NCBI GenBank assembly: GCA_045613785.1
Contig: JAZLBQ010000001.1
Span: 2,571-66,570 of the forward strand
DNA length: 64,000 nucleotides
Direction of reading: 5' to 3'
Source of the DNA: Candidatus Enterousia sp.
Lineage (GTDB): Bacteria > Pseudomonadota > Alphaproteobacteria > Rs-D84
Positions 24,506-64,000 of this stretch are shown piece by piece. How positions within the stretch are numbered: the first letter of the stretch is position 1; every line of letters begins with the position of its first letter. Below the pieces are notes generated by a model. That model searched no databases. It saw nothing but the letters and a program-made list of their open reading frames with translations, and was not told where the DNA came from. Made by a program: the position numbers and the translations under genes.

Positions 24506-24650
24506 AGATTCTATTGTCCCCTTTTTGGGGGCGTTTTTTTATTAGATAGGGATAGGAATAAAAGAATAATTTTATTGATTATTTATTCTGATGTGCTATG
24601 AATTGTTTATCTGTAATTTTCAGAAATTTGTTTTTAGAAAAGGAGAGCTC

Positions 24651-27600
24651 ATGTCCAATACAAAACATTTGGCGGATTTTTTGAAAGTCTGCAGTTTATT
24701 GCCAGCATTGGCGATTATGCCTGCAATGGCGGAAACTGAGATTATTGAAGAACGATTGAATTTGACGGCTGATAAAATTTATCAAACAGATGTTTTGGCG
24801 GATGGGGTAGTTGGTTCGCAAGGTGGCGTTTTCTATGTCGGTAAGGATGTTGGACTGGTCTTTCAAGATGACGCGACGTTTAAAAATAATGTTGCACAGG
24901 GAAAAAATGTCCATGGTGGGGCAATCTATAATGAAGGTCGGGTTGATTTCGCAGATGATGCAACTTTTTCTGGCAACAAGACTTATTCTGGCGGTGGTGC
25001 AATTAGAAACTTGGCATCAGGATTGATGACTTTTAATGGTGATGCAGAATTTGATGGAAATTTGGTTCTGTATTCCAAAGACAATAGCGTTGGTGGCAGT
25101 GGAGCTGCAATAAATAATAACGGTAAAATCGTTTTTAATGGTGAAGCAACTTTTAAAAATAACAGTGCCTTAGATAGAAAAGATAGCTATTCACAGGGTG
25201 GGGCGATTTACAATGGTGGTGAATTAGTATTTAACGGCACTGCAAAATTTACAGGAAATGCTAGTTATAACAAAGGTAGTGTAATAGAAAATACTGCTGC
25301 TGGTAAAATAACTTTTAATAAGGGCCTTGTTGTAAATGGTAATGGAACAGATTTAAAAGGAAATTCTTCGAACGGTATAAATAATTCAGGAACCATGAAT
25401 ATCTCTGGTGGTGATGTAATTATTACAAACAATAATACTGGCGGAATTGCTGGGATTTCAACTGGTGCTGTGTTGAATATTGATGCAGGTGATTCCGGTA
25501 AGATTTTATTTGAAAATAATACAACACGGGATTCTATTGTTGGGTTGTATTCTTCAGGCAGTGAAACAACATTGTTAGCTGATTTAATCTCGTTTAAAAA
25601 TAATGTTCAGACAAGTAATACTGCCAAGGTTTATGGTGGTGCAGTTTATAATGGTGGGTCTGGTTCAGATCAGGGTGTGCTGAAACTGTTGGCGAAAAAT
25701 ATTGTCTTTGAAGGAAATACTTTGAACGGTTTCCAGGACGGGCATAAAAAAATTGGCGGTGCAGCACTGTATAATCGTGGTGGTGGCGATTCTGCTAGTG
25801 TGACAGAAACATTTGTTGGTTTGGCAGACGGAACAAGCACGATCTTGTTCAAAAACAATTCTTCGGCACAGCATGGAGGGGCGATTTTTGGGCGAACAGA
25901 TGACGGAACTGGTTTTGATGCACAGTTGACTTTGACTGGTAATGTTGAATTTTCTGGAAATAGTGCCGGTGAAAACGGTGGTGCTATTATGAACTGGACC
26001 GATGGTCGTGGTGGATTGACTGATATCAATATTGTTGGAAATGTTTCTTTTGAAAATAATATCGCTGGTAAAAGTGGAGGGGCTATTTTCAATAGCGGAA
26101 CAGTTGATTTAAGCAAAGCTGTTGCTGAATTTGAAGGAAATATCGCCAAAGGTAATTATGGTGGGGCAATTTATAATGCCGCTTCTGGTAAGTTCGTAAA
26201 TTTGACAGCAGAGTTTGAAGAGAACAAGGTTCAAAATGATGATTTCGCTGCCGGTGGTGCAATTGCAAATATTGGAAAGATTGCTGAACTGACTGGGGAA
26301 TTTGAAGAAAATTCTGTTCTTGCAACAACTGATAATGTTATAACATCCGCAAAAGGTGGTGCGATTTATACGTTTGCTGGTTCAACAATTGACTCAATCG
26401 TTGCTGACTTTGATGGTAATTTTGCTATCAGTGGTGGTGAAGCAATGGGTGGTGCAATCGTTAATGATGGTAAAATCGGAAAACTGCATCAGTTAAAAGA
26501 TGGTTTTGTAAATAATAAGGTTGATGCCAAGGTTTATGCCTGGGCAGGTGCGTTGTATAACAGTCAAGGGGCAACAATTGATGAATTAAAGGCGGACTTT
26601 ACTGCTAATTCTGTTAAAGGGGCATTGTGGTCCGTTGGTGGTGCGGTATTGAATTATGGCACTGTTGGCACATTGACTGGTAATTTTACAAATAATTCTG
26701 TAGTGGCAACTGAACAAGATGGGTCAGCATTGGGGGGGGCAATATTGAACTTTGATACTATCCAGGCATTGAGTGGTAATTTCATTGGAAATACAGCGTC
26801 AGCTGCAACAGCAGAGTATGCAATGGGGGGGGCAATTGAAAACTATTCCGGGACAATCAATGTCGTTGGGGATAATTTGTTCCACAAGAATATGGCTGAT
26901 TATGGTGGGGCAATTGACAACAATGATGTGCTGAATTTGACAGGTAAAAACGTATTTACTGGCAACAAGGCAAATTATGATGGTGGGGCAATTTATAATG
27001 CTGGCACGTTGAATTTGGCTGGGGAAATCATCTTCGCTGATAACGTTCATGGAAAATATAATGCTGCCAATGACATCGTAAATGAAGGTGCTTTGAATAT
27101 TACAGCAGGAACAACAACCTTTGGTGGTGGTGTCAAGGGAACTGGTGATTTGGTATTGGCCGAAGGGGCAATATTAAATATTGGCACAACTACAATTCAT
27201 CAGGGGACTATCAATTTACAGGGAACTGTTATCGCTTCGCTGGTAAATAATCAGCGTGGAAATGGATATGGTCGTTTCGTTGGTGATATCACAGTCGGGG
27301 CAAATGCAATGTTTGAATTGAACGTTGGTGCCGTTGGAACATATAATATCTGGGATGGTAATGTGATTAGTAAAGATCAGATTATTGTCGGTGATATATA
27401 TGAAATTGCAAATATTGATACCAATGGTGTTCAAATTGTGACTAAATCTGTCGAAAAGGTTGCACAAGATGTTGGACTTTCAACCCAGGCGGCGGGTGCG
27501 GTTGTAAGTATGGCAAATTCAAATATTGGTAAATCGCATCAGATTTCTTTGGCGTTGCAAAATGCGTTGAACAGTGGCGATGCAGAATATGTCGAGGCAG

Positions 27601-28514
27601 AAACCAAGAAATTAAACCCAACAGATAAACCTGTTACCCAGGCGGCTGCGGCTTCAATGCAAAATCAGATTTTGTCGCTGGCATCAGGACGTATGTCTGG
27701 CGGAATGGCAATGGGACGTGCCGGTGGTGACGAGGCAACCCAGGAAAATGGTTTCTGGATTCAAGGATTGTTTAACAAGTCTAAGTTCGCAGATAAATTC
27801 CATGGATATACACGTGGTGTTGCACTGGGGGCAGATACATTGCTTGAAAAGACTTGGACATTGGGTGGCGGTTTGGCATTTAATAATTCTGATGTTCATG
27901 CTGATGGTTTACATACAAATATCGACAGCAGAACCGTGTTCTTGTATGGTCAGTATAAGCCGGGCAAATGGTTTGTAAATTCGACTTTGACATATAACAT
28001 GTCTGAATATACAGACGATAAAACTGTTGCTGCAATCAAGTTGTCAAATACATACGATGTCGATTCGTATGGTGCCCAGATTATGACTGGCTTCGATTTT
28101 GCAACAGGTATCACGACCGAGGCTGGATTGCGTTATCTGCATATTGCACAGGAAGGCTATACAGATGAATTGGGTAATCCTGTTAGTGAAATGGACAACA
28201 GTTTCTTGTCTGGTGTTGCGGGCGTAAAGTATGCGTTTGAAATTGAAAACGATTGGTCCATTCAGTTGCGTCCAGAATTGCGTGCTGCAATGACATACGA
28301 TTTTGTCAGTGATGATGCGGTTGCAACGGTTGTCTTGCCGGGGGTTGCATCATACGAGGTTGCGACAGATCGTTTGAGTCGTTTGGGTGGTGAATTCGGT
28401 ATCGGATTGACTGCACTATATAAAGGTATGGAAATTTCCGTGATGTATGATTTAGATTTACACCAAGATTATACATCTCAGACGGGTATGATAAAGTTCC
28501 GTGGAAAGTTCTGA
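24651..28514 (+). CDS. autotransporter with polymorphic-membrane-protein (Pmp-type GGAI / FxxN) repeats
   Basis: The ATG at 24651 follows AAAGGAG and gives a signal peptide ..LLPALAIMPAMA. There are more than 20 GGAI[YFV]N / FxxN repeat units. The C-terminal ~280 aa are an autotransporter beta-domain ending ..MIKFRGKF. Confidence 0.85.
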   Translation: MSNTKHLADFLKVCSLLPALAIMPAMAETEIIEERLNLTADKIYQTDVLADGVVGSQGGVFYVGKDVGLVFQDDATFKNNVAQGKNVHGGAIYNEGRVDFADDATFSGNKTYSGGGAIRNLASGLMTFNGDAEFDGNLVLYSKDNSVGGSGAAINNNGKIVFNGEATFKNNSALDRKDSYSQGGAIYNGGELVFNGTAKFTGNASYNKGSVIENTAAGKITFNKGLVVNGNGTDLKGNSSNGINNSGTMNISGGDVIITNNNTGGIAGISTGAVLNIDAGDSGKILFENNTTRDSIVGLYSSGSETTLLADLISFKNNVQTSNTAKVYGGAVYNGGSGSDQGVLKLLAKNIVFEGNTLNGFQDGHKKIGGAALYNRGGGDSASVTETFVGLADGTSTILFKNNSSAQHGGAIFGRTDDGTGFDAQLTLTGNVEFSGNSAGENGGAIMNWTDGRGGLTDINIVGNVSFENNIAGKSGGAIFNSGTVDLSKAVAEFEGNIAKGNYGGAIYNAASGKFVNLTAEFEENKVQNDDFAAGGAIANIGKIAELTGEFEENSVLATTDNVITSAKGGAIYTFAGSTIDSIVADFDGNFAISGGEAMGGAIVNDGKIGKLHQLKDGFVNNKVDAKVYAWAGALYNSQGATIDELKADFTANSVKGALWSVGGAVLNYGTVGTLTGNFTNNSVVATEQDGSALGGAILNFDTIQALSGNFIGNTASAATAEYAMGGAIENYSGTINVVGDNLFHKNMADYGGAIDNNDVLNLTGKNVFTGNKANYDGGAIYNAGTLNLAGEIIFADNVHGKYNAANDIVNEGALNITAGTTTFGGGVKGTGDLVLAEGAILNIGTTTIHQGTINLQGTVIASLVNNQRGNGYGRFVGDITVGANAMFELNVGAVGTYNIWDGNVISKDQIIVGDIYEIANIDTNGVQIVTKSVEKVAQDVGLSTQAAGAVVSMANSNIGKSHQISLALQNALNSGDAEYVEAETKKLNPTDKPVTQAAAASMQNQILSLASGRMSGGMAMGRAGGDEATQENGFWIQGLFNKSKFADKFHGYTRGVALGADTLLEKTWTLGGGLAFNNSDVHADGLHTNIDSRTVFLYGQYKPGKWFVNSTLTYNMSEYTDDKTVAAIKLSNTYDVDSYGAQIMTGFDFATGITTEAGLRYLHIAQEGYTDELGNPVSEMDNSFLSGVAGVKYAFEIENDWSIQLRPELRAAMTYDFVSDDAVATVVLPGVASYEVATDRLSRLGGEFGIGLTALYKGMEISVMYDLDLHQDYTSQTGMIKFRGKF
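26732..26739 (+). repeat. G8 homopolymer inside the Pmp autotransporter CDS
   Basis: TGGGGGGGGC, encoding part of a GGAI repeat. Confidence 0.95.
26825..26832 (+). repeat. G8 homopolymer inside the Pmp autotransporter CDS
   Basis: ATGGGGGGGGC, a second tract 93 nt downstream of the first. Confidence 0.95.
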
Positions 28515-53332: not shown

Positions 53333-53598
53333 TTTTTCACCTTTGGTTGCGTGCGAGCAACCTCACACTACTTATATAGGACAAAGTGCTTGGTTTGTCA
53401 ATGTTTAATAGGCTTTTTTGCCCAGGGAAAAATTGTGCTCTTTTTTATAATTTTACTTGATTTTTTCTGGTGGATTGGGTATTATCTGGCCACGCACTTT
53501 GTGCGAAGAACACAGCCGTTCTGTAAAAATTGTGTCCAAATCTCTGATTTGGGTGGTCGCAGGCGGTGAGGATAACAACACAAAAAAAGGTAAAAAAT

Positions 53599-54450
53599 AT
53601 GGCATTGCCAACATTTACAATGAAACAGTTGATGGAAGCTGGTGTTCACTTTGGTCACCACACTCGTCGCTGGAATCCATTGATGACACCATATGTTTAT
53701 GGCGTAAAAGATAAAATTCACATTATCAACTTGAATAAAACTGCACCATTATTACACCGTTCTTTGGTCGCATTGGAAGCAATCGCAGCCGCAGGTGGTA
53801 AGGTTCTGTTCGTTGCTACAAAGCATCAGGCAAAAGATATTGTCAAAGATGCAGCAGAACGTTGTGGGCAGTATTATGTCAATAATCGCTGGTTGGGTGG
53901 TATGTTGACAAACTGGACAACAGTTTCACAGTCTATCCGCCGTTTGAAGAAAATGGAAGCCGATATCGAAAACGCTGAAAAATTGGGATTGACCAAGAAA
54001 GAAGTCGGCGTTATGACCAAGGAAGTCGCAAAATTGCGTGATATCTTTGGCGGTATTATGGATATGCACGGTGTTCCACAGGCGATGGTCGTTATCGACG
54101 TGCCTCGTGAAACGAACGCTGTTCGTGAAGCGAAAAATTTGGATATCCCAACAATCGCAATTTGCGATACAAACGCAAATCCAGAAATGGTTGACTATCC
54201 AGTGCCAGGTAATGATGACGCAGCTCGTGCAACACAGTTGTATTGCGACTTGTTCGTAGATGCGATTTTGTCTGGTATCGAAAAACGCTTGGGCGGTGTT
54301 GCCGGTAAAAAGGTTGAATCTGATATGCGTGCAGAAGCCGCTGATGATTTAGAAGATGAAATCAAGGAAAAAGAAGCCAAGATTAAATCAAAAACATCAG
54401 AAGCACGTGCAGAACGCCGTGGCAAAATGGCCGAAAAAGCAGATAAATAA
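53599..54450 (+). CDS. rpsB: 30S ribosomal protein S2
   Basis: The ATG at 53599 gives MALPTFTMKQLMEAGVHFGHHTRRWNP.., the canonical S2 N-terminus. Followed by tsf. Confidence 0.95.
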   Translation: MALPTFTMKQLMEAGVHFGHHTRRWNPLMTPYVYGVKDKIHIINLNKTAPLLHRSLVALEAIAAAGGKVLFVATKHQAKDIVKDAAERCGQYYVNNRWLGGMLTNWTTVSQSIRRLKKMEADIENAEKLGLTKKEVGVMTKEVAKLRDIFGGIMDMHGVPQAMVVIDVPRETNAVREAKNLDIPTIAICDTNANPEMVDYPVPGNDDAARATQLYCDLFVDAILSGIEKRLGGVAGKKVESDMRAEAADDLEDEIKEKEAKIKSKTSEARAERRGKMAEKADK

Positions 54451-54525
54451 TTTATCTGGACTTAAATTGGTGGGGTCACGTTATGACCCCACAGACTTGA
54501 AATTTTTAATACGGGAGATTTTATT

Positions 54526-55395
54526 ATGGCAGAAATTACAGCAAAATTGATTCAGGAACTGCGTGAAAAAACATCTGCAGGGATGATGGATTGTAAAAAA
54601 GCCTTGATGGAAAATGATGGCGATATTCAGGCTGCCGCAGATTGGTTGCGTCAAAAGGGTATTGTAAAGGCCGCTTCAAAAGCTGGTCGTGTCGCAGCAT
54701 CTGGCTTGGTAACTGTGGTTAAATGTGATGATATGGGCTGTGTCGTCGAATTGAATGCAGAAACAGACTTTGTTGCGAAAAACGAAAAGTTCCAGAAGTT
54801 GGTTGCAGATGTTGCAAGCAAAGCAATGGAATTAAAAGGTGATTTCGATGCAACAATGGAAGCTGTAAAAGATGATATCGCAGCAACAATTTCAACAATT
54901 GGTGAAAATATGAACTTGCGTCGTATCGCAAAAGTTCAAGGTGATAAAATCTTTACTTATATTCACAACGCTTTGGTTCCAGGTATGGGACAAATTGGTG
55001 TTGCAGTTGCAATCAATGGAACAGATGCAAAAATCGATGAAATTGGTTCAAAAATCGCAATGCATATCGCTGCAAACAAGCCAGAATTTATGACCGTTGC
55101 AGACGTTGATCCAGTTGCAGTTGAACGTGAAAAGAAAGTTTTCATCGAATCTGGTGCAACAGCAGGTAAACCTGAAAATATCGTCGAAAAGATGGTCGAA
55201 GGTCGTATTAAAAAATACTATGGCGAATCTGTTCTGGAAGAACAGCCTTTCGTTATGGACCCAAGCAAGACAGTAAAAGATGTTATTGCAGAAGCTGGCG
55301 GTAAATTGGCAGGTTTTGCATACTTTGTTTTGGGCGAAGGTATCGAAAAACGTGAAGACAACTTGGCAGATGAAGTTGCTAAAATGTTGGGCTAA
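54526..55395 (+). CDS. tsf: elongation factor Ts
   Basis: MAEITAKLIQELREKTSAGMMDCKKALMENDGDIQAAADWLRQKG.. Confidence 0.95.
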   Translation: MAEITAKLIQELREKTSAGMMDCKKALMENDGDIQAAADWLRQKGIVKAASKAGRVAASGLVTVVKCDDMGCVVELNAETDFVAKNEKFQKLVADVASKAMELKGDFDATMEAVKDDIAATISTIGENMNLRRIAKVQGDKIFTYIHNALVPGMGQIGVAVAINGTDAKIDEIGSKIAMHIAANKPEFMTVADVDPVAVEREKKVFIESGATAGKPENIVEKMVEGRIKKYYGESVLEEQPFVMDPSKTVKDVIAEAGGKLAGFAYFVLGEGIEKREDNLADEVAKMLG

Positions 55396-55409
55396 ATCGT
55401 TGAAGGTAT

Positions 55410-55439
55410 AAAAAATATCCCCCGTTTGGGGGATTTTTT
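55410..55439. terminator. bidirectional terminator (TCCCC/GGGGA family)
   Basis: AAAAAATATCCCCC-GTTT-GGGGGATTTTTT between tsf (+) and grpE (-). Confidence 0.85.
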
Positions 55440-55473
55440 ATTGCTGTTTATCTTTTTTTATTTTTCTTATTTT

Positions 55474-55995
55474 TTATTTTGCGACGATAACCATTGCTGT
55501 GCGTAAAACGGTGTCGCCAAACATATATCCAGATTGCATTTCGTCAATAATGGTATTGGTTTTGTTGTCTGGGGACTCAATAACCTGAATCGCATTATGG
55601 AACATTGGATTTAATGTTTCGCCAACTGATTCTATTTTTGTAATTCCAATTTGAGCAAAGGCAGATTCCAGGGCAAGTGCCATTGATTTTATGCCTGCAT
55701 CATCAGGTGCGTGCTTTTGTGCAGCAATAACTGCATCCATTACAGGTAGAATTTTTTCCGCAACAGACATCGCACGATTGCGGGCACGAGATTCAGCGTC
55801 CAGAGCCGCACGACGACGTGTGTTTTCAAGTTCTGCCGCCAGGCGTAAGTATTTGTCTTTGTATTCTGCCAGTTGTTCGTTCAAGCGTTCTTTTTCAGAT
55901 TTTTCAGAACTTTGTGCCTGTGGTGTGTCGTCGTTCGCTGCAACGTCATCAACAGATACTGTTTCGATTTTTACTTCTTTGCTTTCGTCTTTCAT
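55474..55995 (-). CDS. grpE: nucleotide exchange factor GrpE
   Basis: ..YKDKYLRLAAELENTRRR.. followed by a C-terminal beta domain ..FHNAIQVIES.. Confidence 0.9.
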   Translation of the reverse strand: MKDESKEVKIETVSVDDVAANDDTPQAQSSEKSEKERLNEQLAEYKDKYLRLAAELENTRRRAALDAESRARNRAMSVAEKILPVMDAVIAAQKHAPDDAGIKSMALALESAFAQIGITKIESVGETLNPMFHNAIQVIESPDNKTNTIIDEMQSGYMFGDTVLRTAMVIVAK

Positions 55996-56025
55996 AACTG
56001 TTTTTCCTGTTTATATACTATACAC

Positions 56026-56730
56026 TTATTTGACACTGGTTATTATAGGTATGAAATCATCACTTTTCAAGGATGCACCTCCAACTAAAACGCCATCTAC
56101 GTTTGCTATCGACATTATTTCGGCGGCATTTGATCCTTTGACAGATGCACCGTATAAAATTGGAGTGCCACCCAGACCCATGTCAGTCAATGTGTTCGCA
56201 ATCAACGTGTGAGCGGTGGCAATTTCAGATGGTGTGGGAGTCAGACCTGCACCAATTGCCCAGCGTGGTTCGTATGCTACAATAATCGGTGAGTTTGTGT
56301 CTGATGGAATTGATTCACGAACCCCAGATTCAATGACCGACATTGTCTTGCCTGCTTGCTTCTCGTCCATTGTTTCTCCAACGCAAATAATTGGAATCAG
56401 ACCGTTTTCTATTGCGTTTATTGCCTTGTGACGGACAGTGGAATTTGTATCGCCGTGGTATTGACGGCATTCACTGTGCCCGATAATAACGTATTTCGCT
56501 CCGGTTTCAGCAATCATTTTGGCAGAAACTTCACCAGTATAGGCACCGTGGTCGTGTTGGCTTACATCCTGAGCACCAATGTTCGTTTTTCCAGAATTTA
56601 TACCCAACATTGTATATGGAACACACAAAATAACTGTGTTCTCTGTGGAAATATTTGACAGGTCAGAAATCATTGTTTCTAGTTGCTTGCGTGAACCGTT
56701 CATCTTCCAGTTGCCAGCAATAATTTTCAT
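56026..56730 (-). CDS. tpiA: triose-phosphate isomerase
   Basis: MKIIAGNWKMNGS..IIGHSECR..VAYEPRWAIGAG.. are the catalytic Lys/His/Glu motifs. Confidence 0.95.
   Translation of the reverse strand: MKIIAGNWKMNGSRKQLETMISDLSNISTENTVILCVPYTMLGINSGKTNIGAQDVSQHDHGAYTGEVSAKMIAETGAKYVIIGHSECRQYHGDTNSTVRHKAINAIENGLIPIICVGETMDEKQAGKTMSVIESGVRESIPSDTNSPIIVAYEPRWAIGAGLTPTPSEIATAHTLIANTLTDMGLGGTPILYGASVKGSNAAEIMSIANVDGVLVGGASLKSDDFIPIITSVK
56041..56072 (-). promoter_or_regulatory. promoter for grpE inside the 3' end of tpiA (sigma32-like and/or sigma70-like)
   Basis: The minus strand reads CCTTGAAA-N15-CCTATAAT. This fits the sigma32 pattern CTTGAAA..CCxxAT but also fits TTGAAA-N17-TATAAT for sigma70. 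It lies about 45 nt upstream of the grpE ATG. Confidence 0.5.
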
Positions 56731-56798
56731 TGCTTTTTCCCTTTTTTTAATTGATTTTTATTTGCTCGTTTTGCTATGGTATCGCAAAAGGGGAACAA

Positions 56799-58211
56799 AT
56801 GCTAGAATATTTAAGAAATGCATCAGAAAAACCAGTCGCAAAGTTTTTTATCGCAGTATTGGCTTTTTCGTTCGTGGGTTGGGGCGTCGCTGAGTGGATT
56901 TTTGGCGGTGGCGTCGGTGATAATACAATGGTTCGTGTTGGAAATACTGAAATTTCTGCAAATCAATTTAGTTTGGAAAAATCTCGTGAGTTGGCAAAAC
57001 TGTCCAAAGAGCAGCAACGTGAAATATATACAGATGCCGCCGCTGGAAATGCTTTTGCACAAAAGGTTATGACAAAGTTGGCAACACAGCAAATGGCAGA
57101 AAATCGTGCAGATGATTTGGGGTTTGTCGTTAGTGATAAACGAATCGCACAGGAAATTCGTGAATTCCCTGAATTTCAGGTCAATGGTGAATTTTCTACG
57201 CTGGCATTTGATACGGTGCTGAATAATTCTGGATATTCTGAAGCAGACTTTGCTGAGGTTTTGCGTGGTAATGTTTTGCGGTCTATGGTTTTGGGGGCGG
57301 TGTCTATTGAAGTTCCTGTGCCTCAGTTCGCAGTTCAGGCAATGTATAATGCACGCTATGGCAGTCGTGAAATCGAATATGCAACAGTTGATTATTCTGA
57401 TTTTGCAGCAGAAAAACCGACTGATAAACAGTTGTCTGAATTCTATGCGAAAAATCCAAAGATTATTCCAGAACAGCGTTCGGTTTCTTATGTGTTTATC
57501 CCAGCTGAAATGGCACAGCCTGATAAGTATGAGGTTGGTTATGCAGCAGCAGTCAAGGTTGAAGATGATATTATCGCTGGCGAATCAATGAAGGATGCCG
57601 CTGAAAAGCATAGTGCAAAGTATGTCAATTTGGGCACGTTTGCACGTGATAAACGACCTGTTGATTCTGTGCTGACGGATAAAATAGTCGCAAAGTTGTT
57701 CGATATGGACGAAGGTCTGGAAAGTGAAATGATTGAAACCAAAGATGGGTTCTTGTTCTTGCGTGTTGATAAGGTTTTACCAGCACATACAGCAGAATTT
57801 GATTCTGTAAAGAATTCTTTGGTTGCTGATTGGCAAAAAGATCAAAAAAAGAAGCAGGCATATGTTCGTGCAAATGAAATCTTGGTCAAGTTGAACAAGG
57901 AAAAGGTTTTTGATGGTGCGAAAAAAGCAACTGTCTCACGTGCATCAGGTGCACCATTAGATGTTTTAGTTGCTGCTTTCCGTAATGATATTGAAACAAA
58001 TGCGATTGTTTCAGGATCAGATGCTTTCTATGTGTTGAGAGTGAAGAGTGCAAAGATGCCAACAGTAGATAAAGCAAAAATGGCAGAATTAAAAAAGGAA
58101 ATGCAGAACGTCTCGAAAAACGGAGTTATGGATGACTATAATTCGTTCTTGATGCGTGAGTATCCAATGAAAATAAACGAGAAAGTATTTAACCGTTTCT
58201 TTGGAAACTAA
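56799..58211 (+). CDS. PpiD-like periplasmic chaperone (SurA N-terminal domain protein)
   Basis: The ATG at 56799 follows AAAGGGGA. The N-terminal anchor MLEYLRNASEKPVAKFFIAVLAFSFVGWG is typical of PpiD. The parvulin region appears divergent. Confidence 0.7.
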   Translation: MLEYLRNASEKPVAKFFIAVLAFSFVGWGVAEWIFGGGVGDNTMVRVGNTEISANQFSLEKSRELAKLSKEQQREIYTDAAAGNAFAQKVMTKLATQQMAENRADDLGFVVSDKRIAQEIREFPEFQVNGEFSTLAFDTVLNNSGYSEADFAEVLRGNVLRSMVLGAVSIEVPVPQFAVQAMYNARYGSREIEYATVDYSDFAAEKPTDKQLSEFYAKNPKIIPEQRSVSYVFIPAEMAQPDKYEVGYAAAVKVEDDIIAGESMKDAAEKHSAKYVNLGTFARDKRPVDSVLTDKIVAKLFDMDEGLESEMIETKDGFLFLRVDKVLPAHTAEFDSVKNSLVADWQKDQKKKQAYVRANEILVKLNKEKVFDGAKKATVSRASGAPLDVLVAAFRNDIETNAIVSGSDAFYVLRVKSAKMPTVDKAKMAELKKEMQNVSKNGVMDDYNSFLMREYPMKINEKVFNRFFGN

Positions 58212-58240
58212 AAAAAATCCCCCGTTTGGGGGATTTTTTT
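58210..58240 (+). terminator. rho-independent terminator (TCCCC/GGGGA family)
   Basis: A8-TCCCCC-GTTT-GGGGGA-T7. Confidence 0.85.
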
Positions 58241-58345
58241 GTGGGTAAAATGTTTTGTAGGGTCGGGGTTGTTGCAAGGAATATATATTGTTTTATCTGT
58301 ATGCTGGGTGTATAATAAGTGGGAATAAAATAAAAAGGATTTGTT

Positions 58346-58657
58346 ATGGCGATGATTTATTGTCGTGAATGTGGTGCAAAACATTCTGATAAGGCGGCGT
58401 CCTGCCCAAAATGTGGTTATTCGGCTTGTGCAGAAAAATCAGTGTTGGTTTATGCGTTGTTGGCATTGTTTTTGGGATGCTGGGGCGTGCATAAATTTTA
58501 TGCAGGACATAATGGGGCCGGTGTTGCAATGCTGTTGATGGGAACAATTGGCTGGTTGTTGATTATACCGGGAATTGTGGTATGTATTTGGGCCTTTGTT
58601 GATTTTATTATTGGCTTGATAAATATGAATAATCCTGAAAATATTTTTGCTAAATAA
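58346..58657 (+). CDS. TM2 domain protein with N-terminal zinc ribbon
   Basis: CRECGAKHS..CPKCG is followed by the TM2 signature LFLGCWGVHKFYAGHNGAGVAMLL. Confidence 0.8.
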   Translation: MAMIYCRECGAKHSDKAASCPKCGYSACAEKSVLVYALLALFLGCWGVHKFYAGHNGAGVAMLLMGTIGWLLIIPGIVVCIWAFVDFIIGLINMNNPENIFAK

Positions 58658-58752
58658 TTGAACGCCCGTTTGGGCGTTTAATTATTTTTGTGTTTGTTTT
58701 GTTTGTTGCTGATGCTGCGTTCCGAACCGACGGTTCTTCGTCCGCACAGGGC

Positions 58753-58779
58753 AAAATAAAAATCCCCAAATGGGGATTT
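58753..58779 (-). terminator. terminator downstream of tRNA-Leu (TCCCC/GGGGA family)
   Basis: Minus strand: ATCCCC-ATTT-GGGGAT followed by TTTTATTTT. Confidence 0.7.
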
Positions 58780-58784
58780 AATTC

Positions 58785-58869
58785 TGGTGGCCCTGGTCGG
58801 ACTCGAACCGACACTCATTGCTGAACTTGATTTTGAGTCAAGCGCGTCTACCAATTCCGCCACGGGGCC
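58785..58869 (-). tRNA. tRNA-Leu (anticodon CAA)
   Basis: 85-nt class II tRNA folded by hand. Sequence GGCCCCG-TG-GCGG-AATTGGTA-GAC.., anticodon stem-loop CTTGA-CTCAAAA-TCAAG, long variable arm, T arm GTCGG-TTCGAGT-CCGAC, encoded CCA. One C-A mismatch in the acceptor stem. Confidence 0.9.
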
Positions 58870-58890
58870 GTGGACTCAAGCTGTATCTTA

Positions 58891-59259
58891 TTATGCAGCC
58901 TGTTTCGCTTCAACTTTTTTTACCAAACGTGCACTGCGGTTTGCCTTGTGAACTGGCTTTTTCGCAACAGACGATGGTTTGCCGACTTTCTTTTCAATGG
59001 CTTTTTTGATTGCCGCCATTTCTTCGGTCAAACGTGATACTGGTTTTGATGTTACATAACCGTCTAGACCGCCGTGCTTGGTCAATGTCCGCAAGCCAGC
59101 AGTAGAAATGCGTAATGAAAAATCACGTCCCAAAATATCACTGTGGAACTTTAATGTTTGTAGATTTGGCAAGAAAGTCCGCTTAGTGCGACGATGTGAG
59201 TGGGAAACGTTCATCCCAACTTCTGTTTTCTTACCTGTAACTTTACATACACGTGGCAT
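58891..59259 (-). CDS. rpmB: 50S ribosomal protein L28 (with C-terminal Lys-rich extension)
   Basis: MPRVCKVTGKKTEVGMNVSHSHRRTKRTFLPNLQ.. is the canonical L28 N-terminus. Confidence 0.9.
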   Translation of the reverse strand: MPRVCKVTGKKTEVGMNVSHSHRRTKRTFLPNLQTLKFHSDILGRDFSLRISTAGLRTLTKHGGLDGYVTSKPVSRLTEEMAAIKKAIEKKVGKPSSVAKKPVHKANRSARLVKKVEAKQAA

Positions 59260-59346
59260 AATACTTTACCTTTAATTTATAGCGGATATGAATTTATAAC
59301 AAATTTATACAAATGTCAAGTGATGATTTGTCTTTTTTGTTATTTT

Positions 59347-60753
59347 TTATTGATGCTCTGGTTTTATTAGGTCAGAAATCGTTTTCGCAGGCGTAAATGT
59401 GGATTGTGGTGTTTCAATAAACACGGTATTCCAATGTGCCATAGCACCGTTCCAAAGGCCCGGGCGTTCCATTGCACGTATAGGATGACCTTGGTAAGAT
59501 TTTTCCGAGATAAAGCCAGTGTTTGGATCAATGAATTTACGCAGGTCAAATTTATCTCCCTTAAAATCACGAACAAAGCAGACCAAGTCCACGGGGTTAA
59601 AATATTGACCTTGGGTTAAGATGTCTTGCTGTGATGGGGATATTTGACTGGATTCAACTATTTGTAAAGTTTCGTTGCCGTCGCTGTCAAGTGTCCAGAA
59701 TGGACCACCACCAGGGGCACCTGTGTTGGCAACCATACCACAAACCCTTAACGGGCGGTTCAGAATAGAACGTAGGTCGGCATTTGTGCTTGGGCGGTAG
59801 CCTAAATAAGTTTTTATAAATTCTTTGATTTCGTCTGTGTTGGCGGTGTCGCTATCGATTGCATGAATATAATCAAATATTTTTTGCTGGATAAACAGAC
59901 CGATATTCATTAGTTGACGTTTAGTTCTGATTGTGTCGGCACGTTTATTGTCAGGACAGACGTTGTCGATATTCTTTATAAATATAATGTCTGCATCAAT
60001 GTCGTTTAGGTTTTCAATCAATGCACCGTGGCCTGCCGGACGAAATACAGGTTGACCATTGTCATCATAAAATATGCTGTTGTCTGGATTTACGGCGATT
60101 GTATTAGTTTCTGTTTTTTGTGTTGATAATGAAACTTTGTATTCTAAGCCGAATTTAGAACGATACTCGTCGACAAGTGTTGGGATTAGTTCATTGAATT
60201 TATCAATATGTTCAGGTGAAACTGTGAAATGCAGGTTGACAATACCGTTTGAAGCAGCGTATTTTGCACCTTCGGCAAAGTGTTCTGCCAGGGCAGTGCG
60301 GTTTTCGTTGTCGTATTTATGGAATTTTAGCAGGCCTTTGGGAAGGTGACCGTAATCTAGACCTGGGGCGTTTACAATATAATTTATTATATCGTGTGGT
60401 GTTGCGTTGTCTGGCAGTATTTTCTGTAAGTCTTTGTAAAATGCGAATTTTTCAGGGTTGTCCAAGACAGATTGTGTGGTCTGGTTCATTTGACCAGATG
60501 ATAAAAAATCGAATAAATCACGAAACATACGAGTCGCAGCACCAGATGCTGGAACAAATTTTACTATTTCATAGTTGTCTGTTGAATAATCGGGGGTGTC
60601 AAATGGGGCGGTTATTCCGTTGCCCAGTGTCGCAGCAGATGTGATTTCTGTAAAGGGAAAACCTGATTTGAAATTGTTTATCTGTTTCAGGACTTCATCC
60701 AGTGTTGGGCCGTTTGGATTGTTGTATTCATTGATGAAATTTTTTTCTGTCAT
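59347..60753 (-). CDS. DUF4301-like protein (UGPase-fold nucleotidyltransferase-like, function unknown)
   Basis: 468 aa with motifs FVPASGAATRMF, RPAGHGAL and GLWNGAMAHWNT, which I recall from the DUF4301 family. The assignment is from memory only. Confidence 0.5.
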   Translation of the reverse strand: MTEKNFINEYNNPNGPTLDEVLKQINNFKSGFPFTEITSAATLGNGITAPFDTPDYSTDNYEIVKFVPASGAATRMFRDLFDFLSSGQMNQTTQSVLDNPEKFAFYKDLQKILPDNATPHDIINYIVNAPGLDYGHLPKGLLKFHKYDNENRTALAEHFAEGAKYAASNGIVNLHFTVSPEHIDKFNELIPTLVDEYRSKFGLEYKVSLSTQKTETNTIAVNPDNSIFYDDNGQPVFRPAGHGALIENLNDIDADIIFIKNIDNVCPDNKRADTIRTKRQLMNIGLFIQQKIFDYIHAIDSDTANTDEIKEFIKTYLGYRPSTNADLRSILNRPLRVCGMVANTGAPGGGPFWTLDSDGNETLQIVESSQISPSQQDILTQGQYFNPVDLVCFVRDFKGDKFDLRKFIDPNTGFISEKSYQGHPIRAMERPGLWNGAMAHWNTVFIETPQSTFTPAKTISDLIKPEHQ

Positions 60754-60838
60754 TTGCTGCTTTCCCTTGGTTTGTGATGTTTTCTATATGCTAGCCAAAA
60801 AATGATTCTGGTGCAAGTATGGGGATTTGTTCTTGTAT

Positions 60839-60869
60839 CCTTGAAAGGTGTGATTGTGGCACTATATAT
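60839..60869 (+). promoter_or_regulatory. promoter for clpB (sigma32-like and/or sigma70-like)
   Basis: CCTTGAAA-N15-CTATATAT, with the same -35 octamer and spacing as the grpE promoter. It lies 33 nt upstream of the clpB ATG. Confidence 0.45.
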
Positions 60870-60901
60870 AGTGCAAATAAAACAATTCAAGGAGCATATA
60901 T

Positions 60902-62959
60902 ATGAATCCAGATGATTTAAACGAATCGCCAAAGCAAGCGATTGAAAAATATACTACGGATTTTACAAAGTTGGCGGCTGATGGAAAGTTAGACCCTGTG
61001 ATTGGGCGTGATGAAGAAATTAGACGTGCAATTCAGGTTTTAAGTCGTCGAACCAAGAATAATCCCGTTTTAATTGGTAATCCGGGGGTTGGAAAGACTG
61101 CGATTGTAGAAGGGTTGGCGAATCGCATTGTTTCGGGAGATGTGCCAGAAAATCTGTTGAAAAAGCAGCTGTTGAGCCTGGATATGGGGGCATTGATGGC
61201 GGGTGCGTCATTTCGTGGTCAGTTTGAAGGTCGGTTAAAGGCGATATTAAAGGCGGTCAAAGAAGCCGACGGTAAAATTATTTTGTTTATTGATGAATTG
61301 CACACATTGGTTGGGGCAGGCAAAGGTGAAGGCAGTATGGATGCCGCAAATCTGTTAAAGCCAATGCTGGCACGTGGTGAACTGCACTGCTTGGGGGCGA
61401 CGACACTGGACGAATATCGTCAATATATAGAAAAGGACCCAGCGTTGGCACGTCGTTTCCAGCCAGTTTATGTTGATGAGCCAACGGTTGATGATACTAT
61501 TTCTATCCTGCGTGGGTTAAAAGAAAAATACGAAGGACATCATGGGGTGCGAATCGCTGATGCGGCGTTGGTTTCGGCAGTGAAATTGTCGAATCGGTAT
61601 ATCACAGACAGATTTTTGCCGGATAAGGCCATAGACTTGATTGACGAAGCGGCCGCTCGTGTTCGTATTGAAATTGCTTCAAAGCCAGATAGATTAGATG
61701 AAGTTGATCGCCATTTGATGCAGTTGAAAATAGAACAACAGGCCTTGAAAAAAGAAAAAGATGATGAATCCAAAAAGCGGCTGAAAGATTTGGAAAAAAT
61801 TATCAAGGATGTAGAGCAGGAATCTGCTGTTTTGACCGATAAATGGCGGGCAGAACAACAAAAGATGCGTGGTTTGTCAGATGCAATGGCGGCATTGGAT
61901 GCAGCCAAGGCCGAAGTCGCAACGGCAATGCGTAATGGCGACTATGAAAAGGCATCTGCATTGCAATATGGGAAAATTCCAGAATTAGAAGAACGTATTG
62001 CTAAAATGAATTCAGATGCACGTGAGTATAAAACGGTGTTGCCGGAACATATTGCCGCAGTTGTCAGCAAATGGACAGGTGTTCCAGCGGATAGATTAAA
62101 TGCCGAAGAACAGTCAAAATTGCTGAATATCGAAGATGAATTGCGTAAACGTGTTGTCGGTCAGGATCATGCGTTGGGTGTCGTTGCCCGTGCAATCAGA
62201 CGTAGTCGTGCGGGGCTAAGTGATCCACGCAGACCAATGGGCAGTTTTATGTTCTTGGGGCCAACAGGCGTCGGTAAGACCGAGGTTGCAAAATCATTGG
62301 CAGAATATTTGTTTAATGATGATGCTGCCATGACACGAATCGATATGAGCGAATATATGGAGCCACATTCTGTTTCACGCCTGATTGGCAGTCCCCCAGG
62401 GTATGTCGGGTATGAACAAGGTGGTGTCCTGACAGAAAGTGTTCGACGTCGTCCATATCAGGTTTTGTTGTTTGATGAAATAGAAAAGGCAAATCCAGAT
62501 GTGTTCAATGTTTTCTTGCAGATATTGGACGATGGACGTTTGACTGATGGTCAGGGACATGTGGTGAATTTCACAAACACAATTATCATAATGACCAGCA
62601 ATTTGCCAGATATGGATGCGGTAAAGCGTAATTTCAGACCGGAATTTGTAAATAGAATTGATGAAATTGTGTTCTTTAACCCATTGGGCAAAGATGTGAT
62701 GGCGGGTATTGTGCGGATTCAGTTGCATGGCTTGGAAAAGCGGTTGTCTGAACGCAGGATTGAATTAAATATCACAGACAAGGCTATCAAGTGGCTGGGA
62801 GATAATGGATATGATGCGGTCTTTGGTGCACGTCCGTTAAAACGCCTGATAACATCAGCAGTCGAAGACAAGATTGCTGATTTAATACTGACCGGTTCAA
62901 TCGGTGAGGGCAGCACAGTATATATAGATGTCAAAGGCAAGGATTTGACAGTTGGTTAA
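60902..62959 (+). CDS. clpB: ClpB disaggregase lacking the N-terminal domain
   Basis: Begins ..[32 protein letters not shown], equivalent to about residue 150 of E. coli ClpB. Both Walker A sites ([16 protein letters not shown]) and the coiled-coil middle domain are present. Confidence 0.9.
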
Positions 62960-62988
62960 AAAAAATCCCCGTTTGCGGATTTTTTTTT
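62958..62988 (+). terminator. rho-independent terminator (degenerate TCCCC/GGGGA family)
   Basis: A8-TCCCC-GTTT-GCGGA-T9, with one stem mismatch. Confidence 0.7.
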
Positions 62989-63031
62989 GGCAAAAGTTAG
63001 ATGGTTTTATTTTTTTATTTTTTTTTTGGGA

Positions 63032-63061
63032 TTGACAGAAGGGGGGGGGGTCAGATAAAAT
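63032..63061 (+). promoter_or_regulatory. candidate sigma70 promoter with a G10 tract in the spacer
   Basis: TTGACA (63032..63037), an 18-nt spacer GAA-G10-TCAGA, then TAAAAT (63056..63061). A T10 run lies just upstream, and the downstream gene starts at 63135. Confidence 0.45.
63041..63050 (+). repeat. G10 homopolymer
   Basis: Ten consecutive G. This is the longest G/C run in the window. Confidence 0.95.
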
Positions 63062-63134
63062 AAACCAAAAGGTGTTAAAATTTTTTTTTAGCATTTTATA
63101 GAATGTTTTTGAAAGAAACAGGAGAGGAAATCAG

Positions 63135-64000
63135 ATGAAACGTGTGTTTATCAGGTTGTTTGGCTGTGTCTTGTCTGCAATCGGATTGGGGGCGTCGTAT
63201 GATACGACAATGACGCTTGTGATGGGCAAAGACAAGGCGCCAGGTTCAGCGTGGGCGGCAGCAAATGACAGTTGTTATTATAATTCTGGCTGTATTCCAT
63301 CAGGAATGTATACTAGTTCGTCTGGTATAACAGGTATAACAAGTGAGTGTAATAATGAAGATGGTGGGAAGTATAGCTATCATGTTCTTTTACGGCCTTT
63401 TTATGTTGGTTGGCTTAACAAGAGTTATTCGGGAACACCTATTACTGGAGAGTGGCCGTTGAATTTTGGCGGCAATAGTCGTGTGGATATCGATTATACC
63501 TTTAGTGGGACAGGTGGTATTTATCCACTTCAAGGGTCGTTTTATAAGTGTACTTCCAATACGCCGCAGGCCTCGACCACATTGAGCTTGTGTAGTCGTT
63601 ATGATGGTATTGGATATGGGACATCCACTGGTGTGGGTGATAGTCCAGATAATTTGTCTTTTAGAAACGGTTGTGTTCTAAATAGTGAAGAAGTTGGTGG
63701 AGTAAGTTATGATAACTATTATGCTGGCTCTAAAAGATATGGTGCGGTATATATGTATTCTCCTCAGCCGTTTATAGATTTGGGTTGTTGTTCGTATGGG
63801 GGGGGGTCTGGCTCTTCTGGTTCTACTTCTTCTGGTTCTGGTTCTTCTGGCTCTGGTGCTGCTTCTACTTCTGGAACAACTACGTCATGCAAGTGTTATT
63901 ATGCACAAGCGACACAGGAATATTCTTATTATTATTATAAAACGGCCTCTTCTACAGATACAGCTGGATGGGTTTATACACATACAGTTCCTTTTTATGA
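63135..64000 (+). CDS. secreted Cys-containing protein with Ser/Gly linker (hypothetical; 3' end beyond window)
   Basis: The ATG follows AGGAGAGGAAA. Hand translation gives MKRVFIRLFGCVLSAIGLGA.. and is open to nt 64000, so it is not in the ORF track. Contains CCSYGGGSGSSGSTSSGSGSSGSGAASTSG. Confidence 0.7.
   Translation, partial: MKRVFIRLFGCVLSAIGLGASYDTTMTLVMGKDKAPGSAWAAANDSCYYNSGCIPSGMYTSSSGITGITSECNNEDGGKYSYHVLLRPFYVGWLNKSYSGTPITGEWPLNFGGNSRVDIDYTFSGTGGIYPLQGSFYKCTSNTPQASTTLSLCSRYDGIGYGTSTGVGDSPDNLSFRNGCVLNSEEVGGVSYDNYYAGSKRYGAVYMYSPQPFIDLGCCSYGGGSGSSGSTSSGSGSSGSGAASTSGTTTSCKCYYAQATQEYSYYYYKTASSTDTAGWVYTHTVPFY
63798..63806 (+). repeat. G9 homopolymer inside the 63135.. CDS
   Basis: TATGGGGGGGGGTCT, encoding YGGG at the start of the Ser/Gly linker. 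Confidence 0.95.

What the first reader, a model, noticed from the sequence alone, without database searches (positions are those of the whole stretch)
63018..63137. G10 tract inside a promoter spacer: candidate phase-variable switch for a surface protein gene
Upstream of the secreted protein gene starting at 63135 lies a consensus -35 hexamer TTGACA (63032..63037). It is followed by GAA-GGGGGGGGGG-TCAGA and then TAAAAT (63056..63061). That makes an 18-nt spacer of which 10 nt are a poly-G run. A T10 run lies immediately upstream (63018..63027). Homopolymer tracts between -35 and -10 are the established mechanism of transcriptional phase variation in Neisseria porA and opc and in Bordetella fim. 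Losing one G here would give the optimal 17-nt spacing. The same gene also carries a G9 tract in its coding region (63798..63806). G/C runs of 8 or more occur nowhere else in this AT-rich window except in the Pmp autotransporter gene.
Basis: partly seen in the sequence, partly recalled or inferred. Interest (0 to 1): 0.6.

Follow-up and report, generated by a model that had tools for sequence, protein, structure and literature searches.

The report
Poly-G promoter switch, hypervariable secreted protein
A run of ten G's sits exactly between the two recognition boxes of the promoter of a fast-evolving secreted protein gene in an uncultured small-genome gut bacterium; its length differs (9 or 10) between otherwise identical strains, and in sister species the matching promoter is flipped by DNA inversion, so this is very probably a slippage-driven expression switch of a well-known kind.

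Summary

The tracts are statistical outliers. No G run of 7 exists and only two of 6; 0.006-0.13 runs of 10 or more are expected.

The window comes from Candidatus Enterousia, a gut alphaproteobacterium with a reduced genome. The gene belongs to a small lineage-restricted family of Cys-rich secreted proteins with no known domain or fold.

Three comparative results support a switch:
- Two near-identical contigs from different samples differ over 2.7 kb only by G9 versus G10 plus one SNP.
- Every homologous promoter reads TTGACA-18 nt-TAnnAT, then 72-75 nt to the ATG. G10 therefore gives the family-standard spacing, and G9 gives 17.
- In sister species, including at the same ClpB-linked locus, this promoter lies on an 82-93-bp invertible segment seen in both orientations.

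The mature protein evolves with dN/dS of 1.25-1.66, against 0.036 for ClpB.

This is a new member of the known porA/fetA/tp0126-type promoter-spacer switches. No expression or read-level data exist, and both observed lengths lie in the active range.

The parts
60902..62959 (+). Upstream gene clpB (685 aa, no N-domain). It is the conserved synteny anchor of the locus.
   Evidence: Pfam AAA_2, AAA_lid_9 and ClpB_D2-small. The same gene precedes the family gene in strains L019/L024 and in the sister species L025/L026.
62958..62988 (+). Hairpin A8-UCC...GGA-U9 after clpB. It is the probable intrinsic terminator that isolates the downstream promoter.
   Evidence: RNA fold -11.5 kcal/mol, z = -1.4, which is weak. 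The orthologue in L019 has a perfect CCCC/GGGG stem.
63018..63027 (+). T10 tract 5-14 nt upstream of the -35 hexamer. Possibly UP-element-like. Its length is polymorphic (T8 in L019/L024).
   Evidence: Function is inferred only. It does not change the -35/-10 spacing.
63032..63037 (+). -35 hexamer TTGACA.
   Evidence: It is invariant in all homologous promoters.
63041..63050 (+). G10 homopolymer inside the 18-nt spacer (63038-63055). This is the proposed slipped-strand switch.
   Evidence: G9 in L019/L023, G10 in L024 and L007. Homologues have a non-repetitive spacer of the same length.
63056..63061 (+). -10 hexamer TAAAAT.
   Evidence: TCAGATAAAATA is identical in the invertible promoter of L005. 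The distance to the ATG is 73 nt, against 72-75 nt in homologues.
63075..63104 (+). Weaker second promoter-like site, TTAAAA-18-TAGAAT (9/12), inside the presumed 5' UTR.
   Evidence: The aligned stretch in the invertible-promoter homologues shows no such hexamers to the eye, but their 5' UTRs were not scanned. Not excluded.
63120..63127 (+). Ribosome-binding site AGGAGAGG, 7 nt before the ATG.
   Evidence: GGAGAGG is conserved in all family members aligned.
63135..64000 (+). Family gene (P0001, 426 aa; runs off the window, predicted end about 64415). It has an invariant signal-peptide-like N-terminus (codons 1-21, ...GLGAS|YD), a Cys-rich beta-rich body and a Ser/Gly linker.
   Evidence: No Pfam domain. 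No fold match. The family is limited to 18 clusters among 1.84 billion representatives. dN/dS is 1.25-1.66 after codon 36.
63798..63806 (+). G9 in the coding region (GGG GGG GGG) at the start of the Ser/Gly linker. Potential translational switch.
   Evidence: In silico, G10 or G7 gives a stop at codon 267-268. G8 or G11 gives a different frame encoding a hydrophobic LALLVLLLLVLVLLALVLLLLL stretch. The tract is absent from all other family genes, where the longest G run is 6 or less.

Best explanation
The intergenic region after clpB holds the sigma-70-type promoter of a hypervariable secreted protein gene. Its 18-nt spacer contains a G10 tract.

Proposed mechanism: slipped-strand mispairing at replication adds or removes a G. 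This changes the -35/-10 distance (17, 18, 19 ... nt) and so the strength of the promoter. The result is heritable but reversible expression variants within a population.
- G10 (18 nt) reproduces the spacing of all homologous promoters and is probably a fully active state.
- G9 (17 nt) is also expected to be active.
- Shorter or longer tracts are expected to be weak or silent.

In this allele a second tract (G9 in the ORF) would add an independent frameshift ON/OFF level.

Shown: the anatomy; that the tract is a statistical outlier; a natural G9/G10 polymorphism; homology to invertible promoters; diversifying evolution of the gene.

Inferred: the transcription start; the effect of tract length on transcription; the reversibility and rate of switching; surface exposure of the protein.
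For: - Exact position in an 11/12 consensus promoter. Only 9 such sites exist in the window, with spacers of 17, 18 and once 19 nt.
- The tract is an outlier.
- L023 (sample DRR337754) and L024 (DRR337765) share 2681 nt and differ only by G9/G10 and one A/G substitution. The A9, T8 and T8 tracts nearby are identical.
- The window and L007 have G10.
- The alignment from -35 to the ATG has only one or two single-base gaps, none between the hexamers, against L005, L002, L009 and L008. All read TTGACA-18-TAnnAT with 72-75 nt to the ATG.
- Those homologous promoters sit on 82-93-bp segments between AAACGGT and ACCGTTT. The segments occur in both orientations, including at the orthologous clpB-linked locus. 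The family is therefore under phase-variable control elsewhere.
- dN/dS is 1.25-1.66 and dS is 5-8 times that of clpB in the mature part, while the 5' cassette is identical.
- The mechanism has precedents. [quoted passage not shown] PMC7864442 places the meningococcal porA poly-G and the T. pallidum tp0126 poly-G between the -35 and -10 elements.
Against: - Only two lengths are seen, and both (17 and 18 nt) lie in the range of strong promoters in this genome. An OFF state has not been observed.
- Intergenic A/T homopolymers also differ between the window and L019, so some tract variation is general.
- The G9/G10 difference rests on short-read assemblies, which are error-prone at poly-G.
- There is no transcription-start, expression or read-level heterogeneity data.
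- A second promoter-like site lies downstream.
- The coding G9 is not conserved.
Confidence: 0.65

Rival explanations
1. The promoter is real but effectively constitutive. The G tract is a mutable yet functionally neutral spacer filler, for example expanded from a G4/C4 seed as seen in homologous spacers. G9/G10 variation would be neutral drift, with no adaptive switching.
For: - Both observed lengths give 17-18 nt, and this genome has strong promoters of both spacings.
- Intergenic A/T tracts vary too.
- The paralogue type L008/L010 has a fixed promoter with only GGGG.
Against: - A run of 10 G is far outside the genome's run-length distribution.
- It is the only indel between two otherwise identical contigs.
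- Homologous promoters are dedicated switches.
- The gene is under diversifying selection.
Confidence: 0.2
2. The functional promoter is the downstream site TTAAAA-18-TAGAAT (63075-63104). The G tract then lies upstream of the core promoter and does not set the spacing.
For: The consensus scan lists it at 9/12. It is conserved in L019, L024 and L007.
Against: - It is much weaker than the 11/12 upstream site.
- In homologues with invertible promoters the aligned stretch between the right repeat and the ATG shows no promoter-like hexamers to the eye, although it was not scanned. The only promoter seen there is the one collinear with the G10 promoter.
- The -10-to-ATG distance of 72-75 nt is conserved across the family.
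Confidence: 0.08
3. The G9/G10 difference between contigs is a sequencing or assembly artefact at a poly-G run. The tract is stable.
For: All comparison sequences are short-read metagenome assemblies. L007 breaks exactly at the tract, as expected for error-prone k-mers.
Against: A9 and T8 tracts in the same two contigs agree. Consensus assemblies report the majority length. Even if this rival holds, the anatomy and the homology argument remain.
Confidence: 0.07

Closest known systems
Neisseria meningitidis porA (poly-G) and N. gonorrhoeae fetA (poly-C) promoter-spacer tracts (van der Ende 1995 and Carson 2000, as cited in PMC5320596; porA tract position from PMC7864442)
   Same: A G/C homopolymer lies between the -35 and -10 hexamers of an outer-surface protein gene. 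Tract length differs between strains and sets the hexamer spacing.
   Different: The host is an uncultured, reduced-genome gut alphaproteobacterium. The family-standard spacing is 18 nt. No expression data exist. The protein is unrelated and of unknown function.
Treponema pallidum tp0126 and tpr/tprL promoter poly-G tracts (PMC7864442)
   Same: The organism was long uncultivable and has a small genome. A poly-G of 7-11 lies inside the promoters of putative outer-membrane protein genes. For tp0126 the tract lies between -35 and -10, with best activity at 17 nt.
   Different: In T. pallidum, length heterogeneity within isolates and reporter effects were measured. Here only between-sample polymorphism is seen.
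Mycoplasma hyorhinis vlp genes: poly-A tract in the promoter spacer of a multigene surface lipoprotein family with a conserved 5' region (my own knowledge, not checked here)
   Same: A multigene family with a highly conserved promoter, 5' UTR and signal-peptide cassette and a variable body. A homopolymer in the spacer acts as the switch. The host-dependent organism has a reduced genome.
   Different: Poly-A versus poly-G. Lipoproteins with tandem-repeat bodies versus Cys-rich beta-rich proteins. Here only one of the known paralogue types carries the tract.
Invertible promoters (E. coli fimS; Bacteroides and other invertons; PMC11868660, PMC11602134)
   Same: The homologous promoters in sister Enterousia genomes are short (82-93 bp) promoter-bearing segments between inverted repeats, found in both orientations upstream of surface-type genes.
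   Different: The window promoter has no such repeats. It is collinear with the ON orientation and carries the G tract instead. No recombinase gene was found in the stretches examined.
Intragenic poly-G frameshift switches, e.g. Neisseria hmbR/hpuA (PMC3786947) and Chlamydia pneumoniae pmp genes (my own knowledge)
   Same: The G9 in this ORF and the two G8 in the Pmp-like autotransporter ORF are of the length and type that cause frameshift ON/OFF switching.
   Different: No length variant of these coding tracts has been observed. The G9 sits mid-gene at a linker, so a shift truncates or re-tails the protein rather than abolishing it.

Membership tests
Promoter-spacer homopolymer (SSR) transcriptional phase variation (porA/fetA/tp0126 type) | Homopolymer of about 8 nt or more located between recognisable -35 and -10 hexamers | tested here: met
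   TTGACA-GAA G10 TCAGA-TAAAAT, an 11/12 consensus match. The hexamers and their distance to the ATG are conserved in homologues.
Promoter-spacer homopolymer (SSR) transcriptional phase variation (porA/fetA/tp0126 type) | Tract length varies between closely related strains | tested here: met
   G9 in L019/L023 against G10 in L024, L007 and the window. L023 and L024 are otherwise identical apart from 1 SNP in 2681 nt.
Promoter-spacer homopolymer (SSR) transcriptional phase variation (porA/fetA/tp0126 type) | Length heterogeneity within a clonal population, with high-frequency reversible switching | not testable with these tools
   No reads or cultures are available. The contig break at the tract in L007 is compatible but not diagnostic.
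Promoter-spacer homopolymer (SSR) transcriptional phase variation (porA/fetA/tp0126 type) | Tract length changes the transcription level | not testable with these tools
   Inferred only from the spacing rules of sigma-70 promoters. This genome's strong promoters use 17 and 18 nt.
Promoter-spacer homopolymer (SSR) transcriptional phase variation (porA/fetA/tp0126 type) | The controlled gene encodes a surface or host-interaction determinant | tested here: inconclusive
   There is a signal-peptide-like N-terminus, about 14 invariant Cys and dN/dS of 1.25-1.66. No Pfam domain, a low-confidence model and no fold match.
Intragenic SSR (frameshift) phase variation | A homopolymer in the ORF whose +/-1 change shifts the frame and truncates or alters the product | tested here: met
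   G9 at 63798-806. A +1 change gives a stop at codon 268. A -1 change gives an alternative hydrophobic tail.
Intragenic SSR (frameshift) phase variation | Observed length variation of that tract | not testable with these tools
   No second sequence of this allele was retrieved. Other alleles and paralogues lack the tract.
Invertible promoter (inverton) | Promoter flanked by inverted repeats | tested here: not met
   The window has no AAACGGT...ACCGTTT pair and no conserved left flank. The only flanking inverted repeat, 11 nt at 82%, is A/T-rich and is not conserved in L019.
Invertible promoter (inverton) | Both orientations observed (in relatives) | tested here: met
   This holds in relatives only. 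L005 copy 1 against copy 2 gives 105-nt arms that are 93% complementary, next to a direct repeat of the 5' UTR. L012 is inverted relative to L001/L013-16. At the orthologous clpB locus (L025, L026) the promoter faces away from the gene.
Invertible promoter (inverton) | Dedicated site-specific recombinase | tested here: inconclusive
   None appeared among 34 of the 48 window ORFs of 150 aa or more scanned with Pfam, nor among 10 selected ORFs flanking L001, L002 and L005. The remaining window ORFs and the rest of the genomes were not examined.

The most novel reading that the evidence does not exclude
One and the same promoter (TTGACA-18-TAnnAT, about 73 nt before the ATG of a family of hypervariable secreted proteins) is switched by two unrelated mechanisms in sister lineages of Ca. 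Enterousia. One is site-specific inversion of an 82-93-bp cassette. The other, in the window's species at the orthologous clpB-linked locus, is slippage of a poly-G tract in the spacer of a promoter that is collinear with the ON orientation and has lost, or never had, the inverted repeats. That would be a natural case of one phase-variation mechanism replacing another at an orthologous promoter. In this allele it is combined with a second, intragenic tract whose -1 shift replaces the C-terminal domain by a membrane-anchor-like tail.
Probability: 0.4. Interest if true: 0.7.

Novelty: new member of a known kind. Interest (0 to 1): 0.5.

Why it matters
Ca. Enterousia (order Rs-D84) are uncultured gut alphaproteobacteria with genomes under 1 Mb, and nothing is known about how they interact with hosts or partners (PMC12306168). 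This locus points to a lineage-specific family of rapidly diversifying secreted proteins under stochastic expression control. That is the signature of immune, phage or partner-driven selection seen in Neisseria, Treponema and Mycoplasma.

The comparison with sister species offers a rare chance to see two switch types, an inverton and a homopolymer, acting on homologous promoters. It also gives concrete, cheap tests on public read sets. In practical terms, it explains why assemblies of these genomes break at these loci.

Tried and rejected
- **P0001 contig look-up:** the contig is not on record, so the 3' end of the gene and the rest of the 67-kb contig could not be read.
- **JGI metagenome scans:** two scans, one with protein patterns and one with the 5'-cassette DNA pattern, found nothing.
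- **L019 ClpB look-up:** All 12 contig look-ups were then used, so no further strains could be added.
- **Other copies in the window:** a search for other copies of the family or its 5' cassette found none. A weak hit at 141-350 (-) is a different Cys-rich secreted protein.
- **Inverton repeats in the window:** none. An 11-nt A/T-rich inverted repeat around the promoter was rejected as chance, because it is not conserved in L019.
- **Protein function:** Pfam gave no hit. The AlphaFold model has mean pLDDT 55.6. Foldseek against PDB gave nothing with E below 0.3. A profile search of 1.84 billion representatives found only the family itself.
- **Recombinase genes:** none in the window ORFs scanned or in the scanned flanks of inverton-bearing loci.
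- **Rfam:** only two tRNAs in the window and nothing in the 5' UTR.
- **Contig break of L007 at the tract:** considered as evidence of heterogeneity, then rejected as non-diagnostic.
- **Other G/C runs near family genes in relatives** (L001 G9, L002 G8, L005 C9, L009 C8): considered as further promoter tracts. They lie in intergenic sequence that carries repeated elements, and the L008 C8 is a terminator stem. They were not pursued.

Full report
**Observation.**
- clpB ends at 62959 and is followed by an A8...U9 hairpin at 62958-62988.
- A T10 run lies at 63018-63027.
- TTGACA lies at 63032-63037.
- The spacer GAA-G10-TCAGA is 18 nt, with G10 at 63041-63050.
- TAAAAT lies at 63056-63061.
- A 73-nt leader follows, with AGGAGAGG at 63120-63127, and the ATG is at 63135.
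- The ORF runs off the window and contains G9 at 63798-63806.
- The only other G/C runs of 8 or more are two G8 in the ORF 24591-28514. That ORF has an autotransporter beta-domain and Chlamydia-PMP repeats. The two G8 encode the Gly-Gly of GGA(I/L) motifs.

**Chance.** The window is 41% G+C.
- G runs fall off steeply: 155 of length 4, 38 of length 5, 2 of length 6 and none of length 7. Then come 8, 8, 9 and 10.
- Extension-probability models of order 1-4 expect 0.006-0.13 runs of 10 or more, and 0.03-0.43 runs of 9 or more.
- GGG is the least used Gly codon (171 of 1262). The pair GGG-GGG is used in 2 of 173 Gly-Gly pairs among the long ORFs counted, and both are the autotransporter tracts.
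- Only nine sites in both strands match the sigma-70 consensus at 11/12 or better. The G10 lies inside one of them, and the G9 lies 750 nt downstream in the same gene. This is not a chance arrangement.

**Organism and gene.** The product is P0001 (426 aa).
- It has 18 relatives in 5.8 billion clustered proteins. A profile search of 1.84 billion representatives finds only 18 clusters.
- Genome hits are MAGs named Candidatus Enterousia sp. and 'Alphaproteobacteria bacterium' from animal guts.
- The neighbouring DUF4301 and clpB genes are 92-99% identical to those of the Ca. Enterousia MAG GCA_045637165.1.
- Enterousia (order Rs-D84) are uncultured gut bacteria with genomes under about 1 Mb and very limited biosynthesis (PMC12306168; taxonomy).
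- The family shares an invariant N-terminus, M(K/R)R(A/V)FIRLFGC(V/I)LS(A/T)IGL(G/S)xSYD. This reads as a Sec signal peptide with a small-x-small site before YD. That reading is my inference, as no predictor was available.
- The family also shares about 14 invariant Cys, a beta-rich body and a Ser/Gly linker.
- There is no Pfam domain. The AlphaFold model is of low to moderate confidence, with mean pLDDT 55.6, and Foldseek finds no PDB match.
- 'Secreted, Cys-rich' is supported. 'Surface protein' is plausible but unproven.

**Strain comparison.** Three other sequences of the same locus were recovered.
- L019/L023 (Logan assembly of DRR337754) is 98.7% identical to window 53349-63546 and has G9, which gives a 17-nt spacer.
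- L024 (DRR337765) has G10.
- L007 (SRR32406973) starts with A+G10 at its very first bases.
- L023 and L024 share 2681 nt and differ only by the G9/G10 indel and one A/G substitution. Their A9, T8 and T8 tracts are identical.
- Between the window and L019 there are 108 substitutions and 10 indels. Seven indels are in or next to intergenic homopolymers, including T10 to T8 and G10 to G9. Three are in-frame indels in the family gene.
- Caveat: these are short-read assemblies, and intergenic A/T tracts also vary at 1.3% divergence. Still, at near-zero divergence (L023 versus L024) the G tract is the only indel.

**The gene is hypervariable.**
- Substitutions between the window and L019 run at about 0.7% across 10 kb. 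They rise to about 12% in the gene from about codon 36 onwards. No substitution falls between 63087 and 63241, the stretch covering most of the 5' UTR and the signal peptide.
- Nei-Gojobori estimates for the mature part are dN/dS = 1.25 (against L007, 242 codons) and 1.66 (against L019, 98 codons). dS there is 5-8 times that of clpB. For clpB itself dN/dS = 0.036.
- This pattern, a conserved expression cassette with a diversifying body, is typical of variable surface antigens.

**Homologous promoters and an unexpected finding.** Upstream regions of family genes in other Enterousia genomes share the 5' UTR and, further up, a promoter that aligns with the window's from -35 to the ATG. The alignment has only one or two single-base gaps, none between the hexamers. 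All read TTGACA, 18 nt, TAnnAT, then 72-75 nt to the ATG.
- In L005 the blocks ATTGACA and TCAGATAAAATA are identical to the window. The 13 nt between them read CACCCCGGATTTA where the window has GAAGGGGGGGGGG.
- The 18-nt spacer is therefore the family standard. G10 reproduces it, and G9 gives 17 nt.
- This genome has near-consensus promoters with both 17-nt and 18-nt spacers, so both observed alleles should be active. I expect the tract to work as a level control that falls off at G8 or less and G11 or more. That is inference from the porA, fetA and tp0126 precedents (PMC5320596, PMC7864442).

In those relatives the promoter lies on an 82-93-bp segment bounded by AAACGGT and ACCGTTT. The segment is found in both orientations.
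- The two tandem family genes of L005 carry it in opposite orientation. The arms are 105 nt and 93% complementary, and sit directly next to a 94% direct repeat of the 5' UTR and signal peptide.
- L012 carries the segment of L001/L013-L018 inverted, at 87-88% identity on the opposite strand between forward-aligning flanks.
- In L002, L004, L006 and L009 the promoter faces away from the gene.
- At the orthologous position downstream of clpB in the sister species (L025, which is the contig of L004, and L026) the family gene is preceded by such a segment in the away-facing orientation.
- These are invertible promoters of the fimS/Bacteroides kind (PMC11868660, PMC11602134).

The window has none of the repeats. 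Its promoter corresponds to the gene-facing orientation and has the G tract in place of ordinary spacer sequence. The paralogue type L008/L010, linked to rpsU, has a fixed promoter of the same architecture with only GGGG in the spacer, which suggests a seed for tract expansion. No recombinase gene was found in the window ORFs scanned or in the scanned flanks of the relatives. It may lie elsewhere in those genomes.

**Coding tract.** G9 encodes GGG at the start of the Ser/Gly linker between the two halves of the protein.
- In silico, +1 G stops translation at codon 268.
- In silico, -1 G opens a frame in which the TCT/GGT-rich linker reads LALLVLLLLVLVLLALVLLLLL followed by basic residues. This frame stays open to the window end.
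- The tract is absent from L007 and from all other family genes, where the longest G run is 6 or less. It is therefore allele-specific. No length variant could be examined.

**Mechanism proposed.** Slipped-strand mispairing in G10 changes the -35/-10 spacing and thereby transcription of a secreted, diversifying protein. In this allele a second tract can truncate or re-tail the product.
- Steps shown: the anatomy, the statistical anomaly, natural length polymorphism, homology with dedicated switches, and diversifying selection.
- Steps inferred: the transcription start, the dependence of activity on length, reversibility and rate, and surface exposure.
- My confidence is about 0.65.
- Rivals are a neutral mutable tract in a constitutive promoter (0.2), use of the weaker downstream TTAAAA-18-TAGAAT site (0.08), and an assembly artefact for the length difference (0.07).

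**Comparison with known systems.** It works like the porA, fetA and tp0126 promoter-spacer tracts, and like the poly-A vlp promoters of Mycoplasma hyorhinis. The structural membership criteria and the between-strain criterion are met. The functional ones could not be tested. It is not an inverton, because the repeats were tested and are absent, but its homologues are. I rate it a new member of a known kind.

The more novel reading is that one orthologous promoter is controlled by inversion in one lineage and by a homopolymer in another. The evidence does not exclude this and partly supports it.

**Score.** Interest is 0.5. The mechanism itself is textbook. The setting (an uncharacterised, reduced-genome gut lineage), the evidence of real tract polymorphism, and the inverton/homopolymer pairing at homologous promoters make it worth a targeted read-level follow-up.

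Noticed in passing
L005 3865-3969 and 5530-5634; L001 about 3854-3960; L012 217-323; L025/L026 downstream of clpB: Family genes in sister Enterousia genomes are preceded by 82-93-bp promoter-bearing segments between AAACGGT and ACCGTTT. The segments occur in both orientations. These are invertible promoters, apparently undescribed for this lineage.
   Followed up: yes
window 26732-26739 and 26825-26832 (ORF 24591-28514): Two G8 tracts in the Pmp-like autotransporter gene encode the Gly-Gly of GGA(I/L) motifs with the rare GGG-GGG codon pair (2 of 173 Gly-Gly pairs). They are possible frameshift switches, as reported for Chlamydia pmp genes.
   Followed up: partly
window 63798-64000: A -1 frameshift at the coding G9 converts the Ser/Gly linker into a 22-residue Leu/Val stretch followed by basic residues. 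This would be a membrane-anchor-like alternative C-terminus, and the frame is open to the window end. It may simply be a by-product of TCT/GGT codon use.
   Followed up: partly
L023 and L024 (both end at the same base, codon 136 of the family gene); L003, L006, L007, L022 and L027-L034 ends: Many metagenome contigs stop at or inside the promoter cassette or the variable part of the gene. This is consistent with repeated 5' cassettes, mixed orientations or co-existing alleles breaking the assemblies.
   Followed up: partly
window 62958-63089 versus L019: Almost every intergenic A/T homopolymer of 7 or more around the promoter differs in length between the two strains (A8/A9, T9/T8, T7/T6, T10/T8). 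Homopolymers inside genes do not differ.
   Followed up: yes
window 60902-62959: ClpB is 685 aa and lacks the usual N-terminal domain. The same short form is conserved at 94-100% identity in more than 100 database clusters from gut alphaproteobacteria.
   Followed up: no
window 1-495 (-): Another Cys-rich secreted protein (MKTYRIFLLTAILAAPAANA...) runs off the window start. It has faint similarity to the family around its APG..W motif.
   Followed up: no
window 1609-5337, 6627-9485, 9828-11981, 12004-14508, 19784-23128: Five large ORFs (717-1242 aa) have no Pfam match at all. This is a remarkable share of a reduced genome.
   Followed up: no
L025 4519-5100, L026 4319-4900: The clpB-to-family-gene spacer of the sister species (about 770 nt) is filled with REP/MITE-like G+C-rich hairpin repeats that recur near other family genes. 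G8-G9 and C8-C9 runs occur near or within this kind of repeat-bearing intergenic sequence (L001 5338, L002 1458, L005 5185, L009 4760).
   Followed up: partly
whole window: There is a strong strand bias: G 15367 against C 10968, and T 20271 against A 17394 on the + strand, although genes lie on both strands.
   Followed up: no
window 17780-18859; 41336-42061; 43666-44766: A choloylglycine (bile-salt) hydrolase family gene, a Fic-domain gene, and a CcrM-like N6/N4 DNA methyltransferase with a RAMA domain.
   Followed up: no
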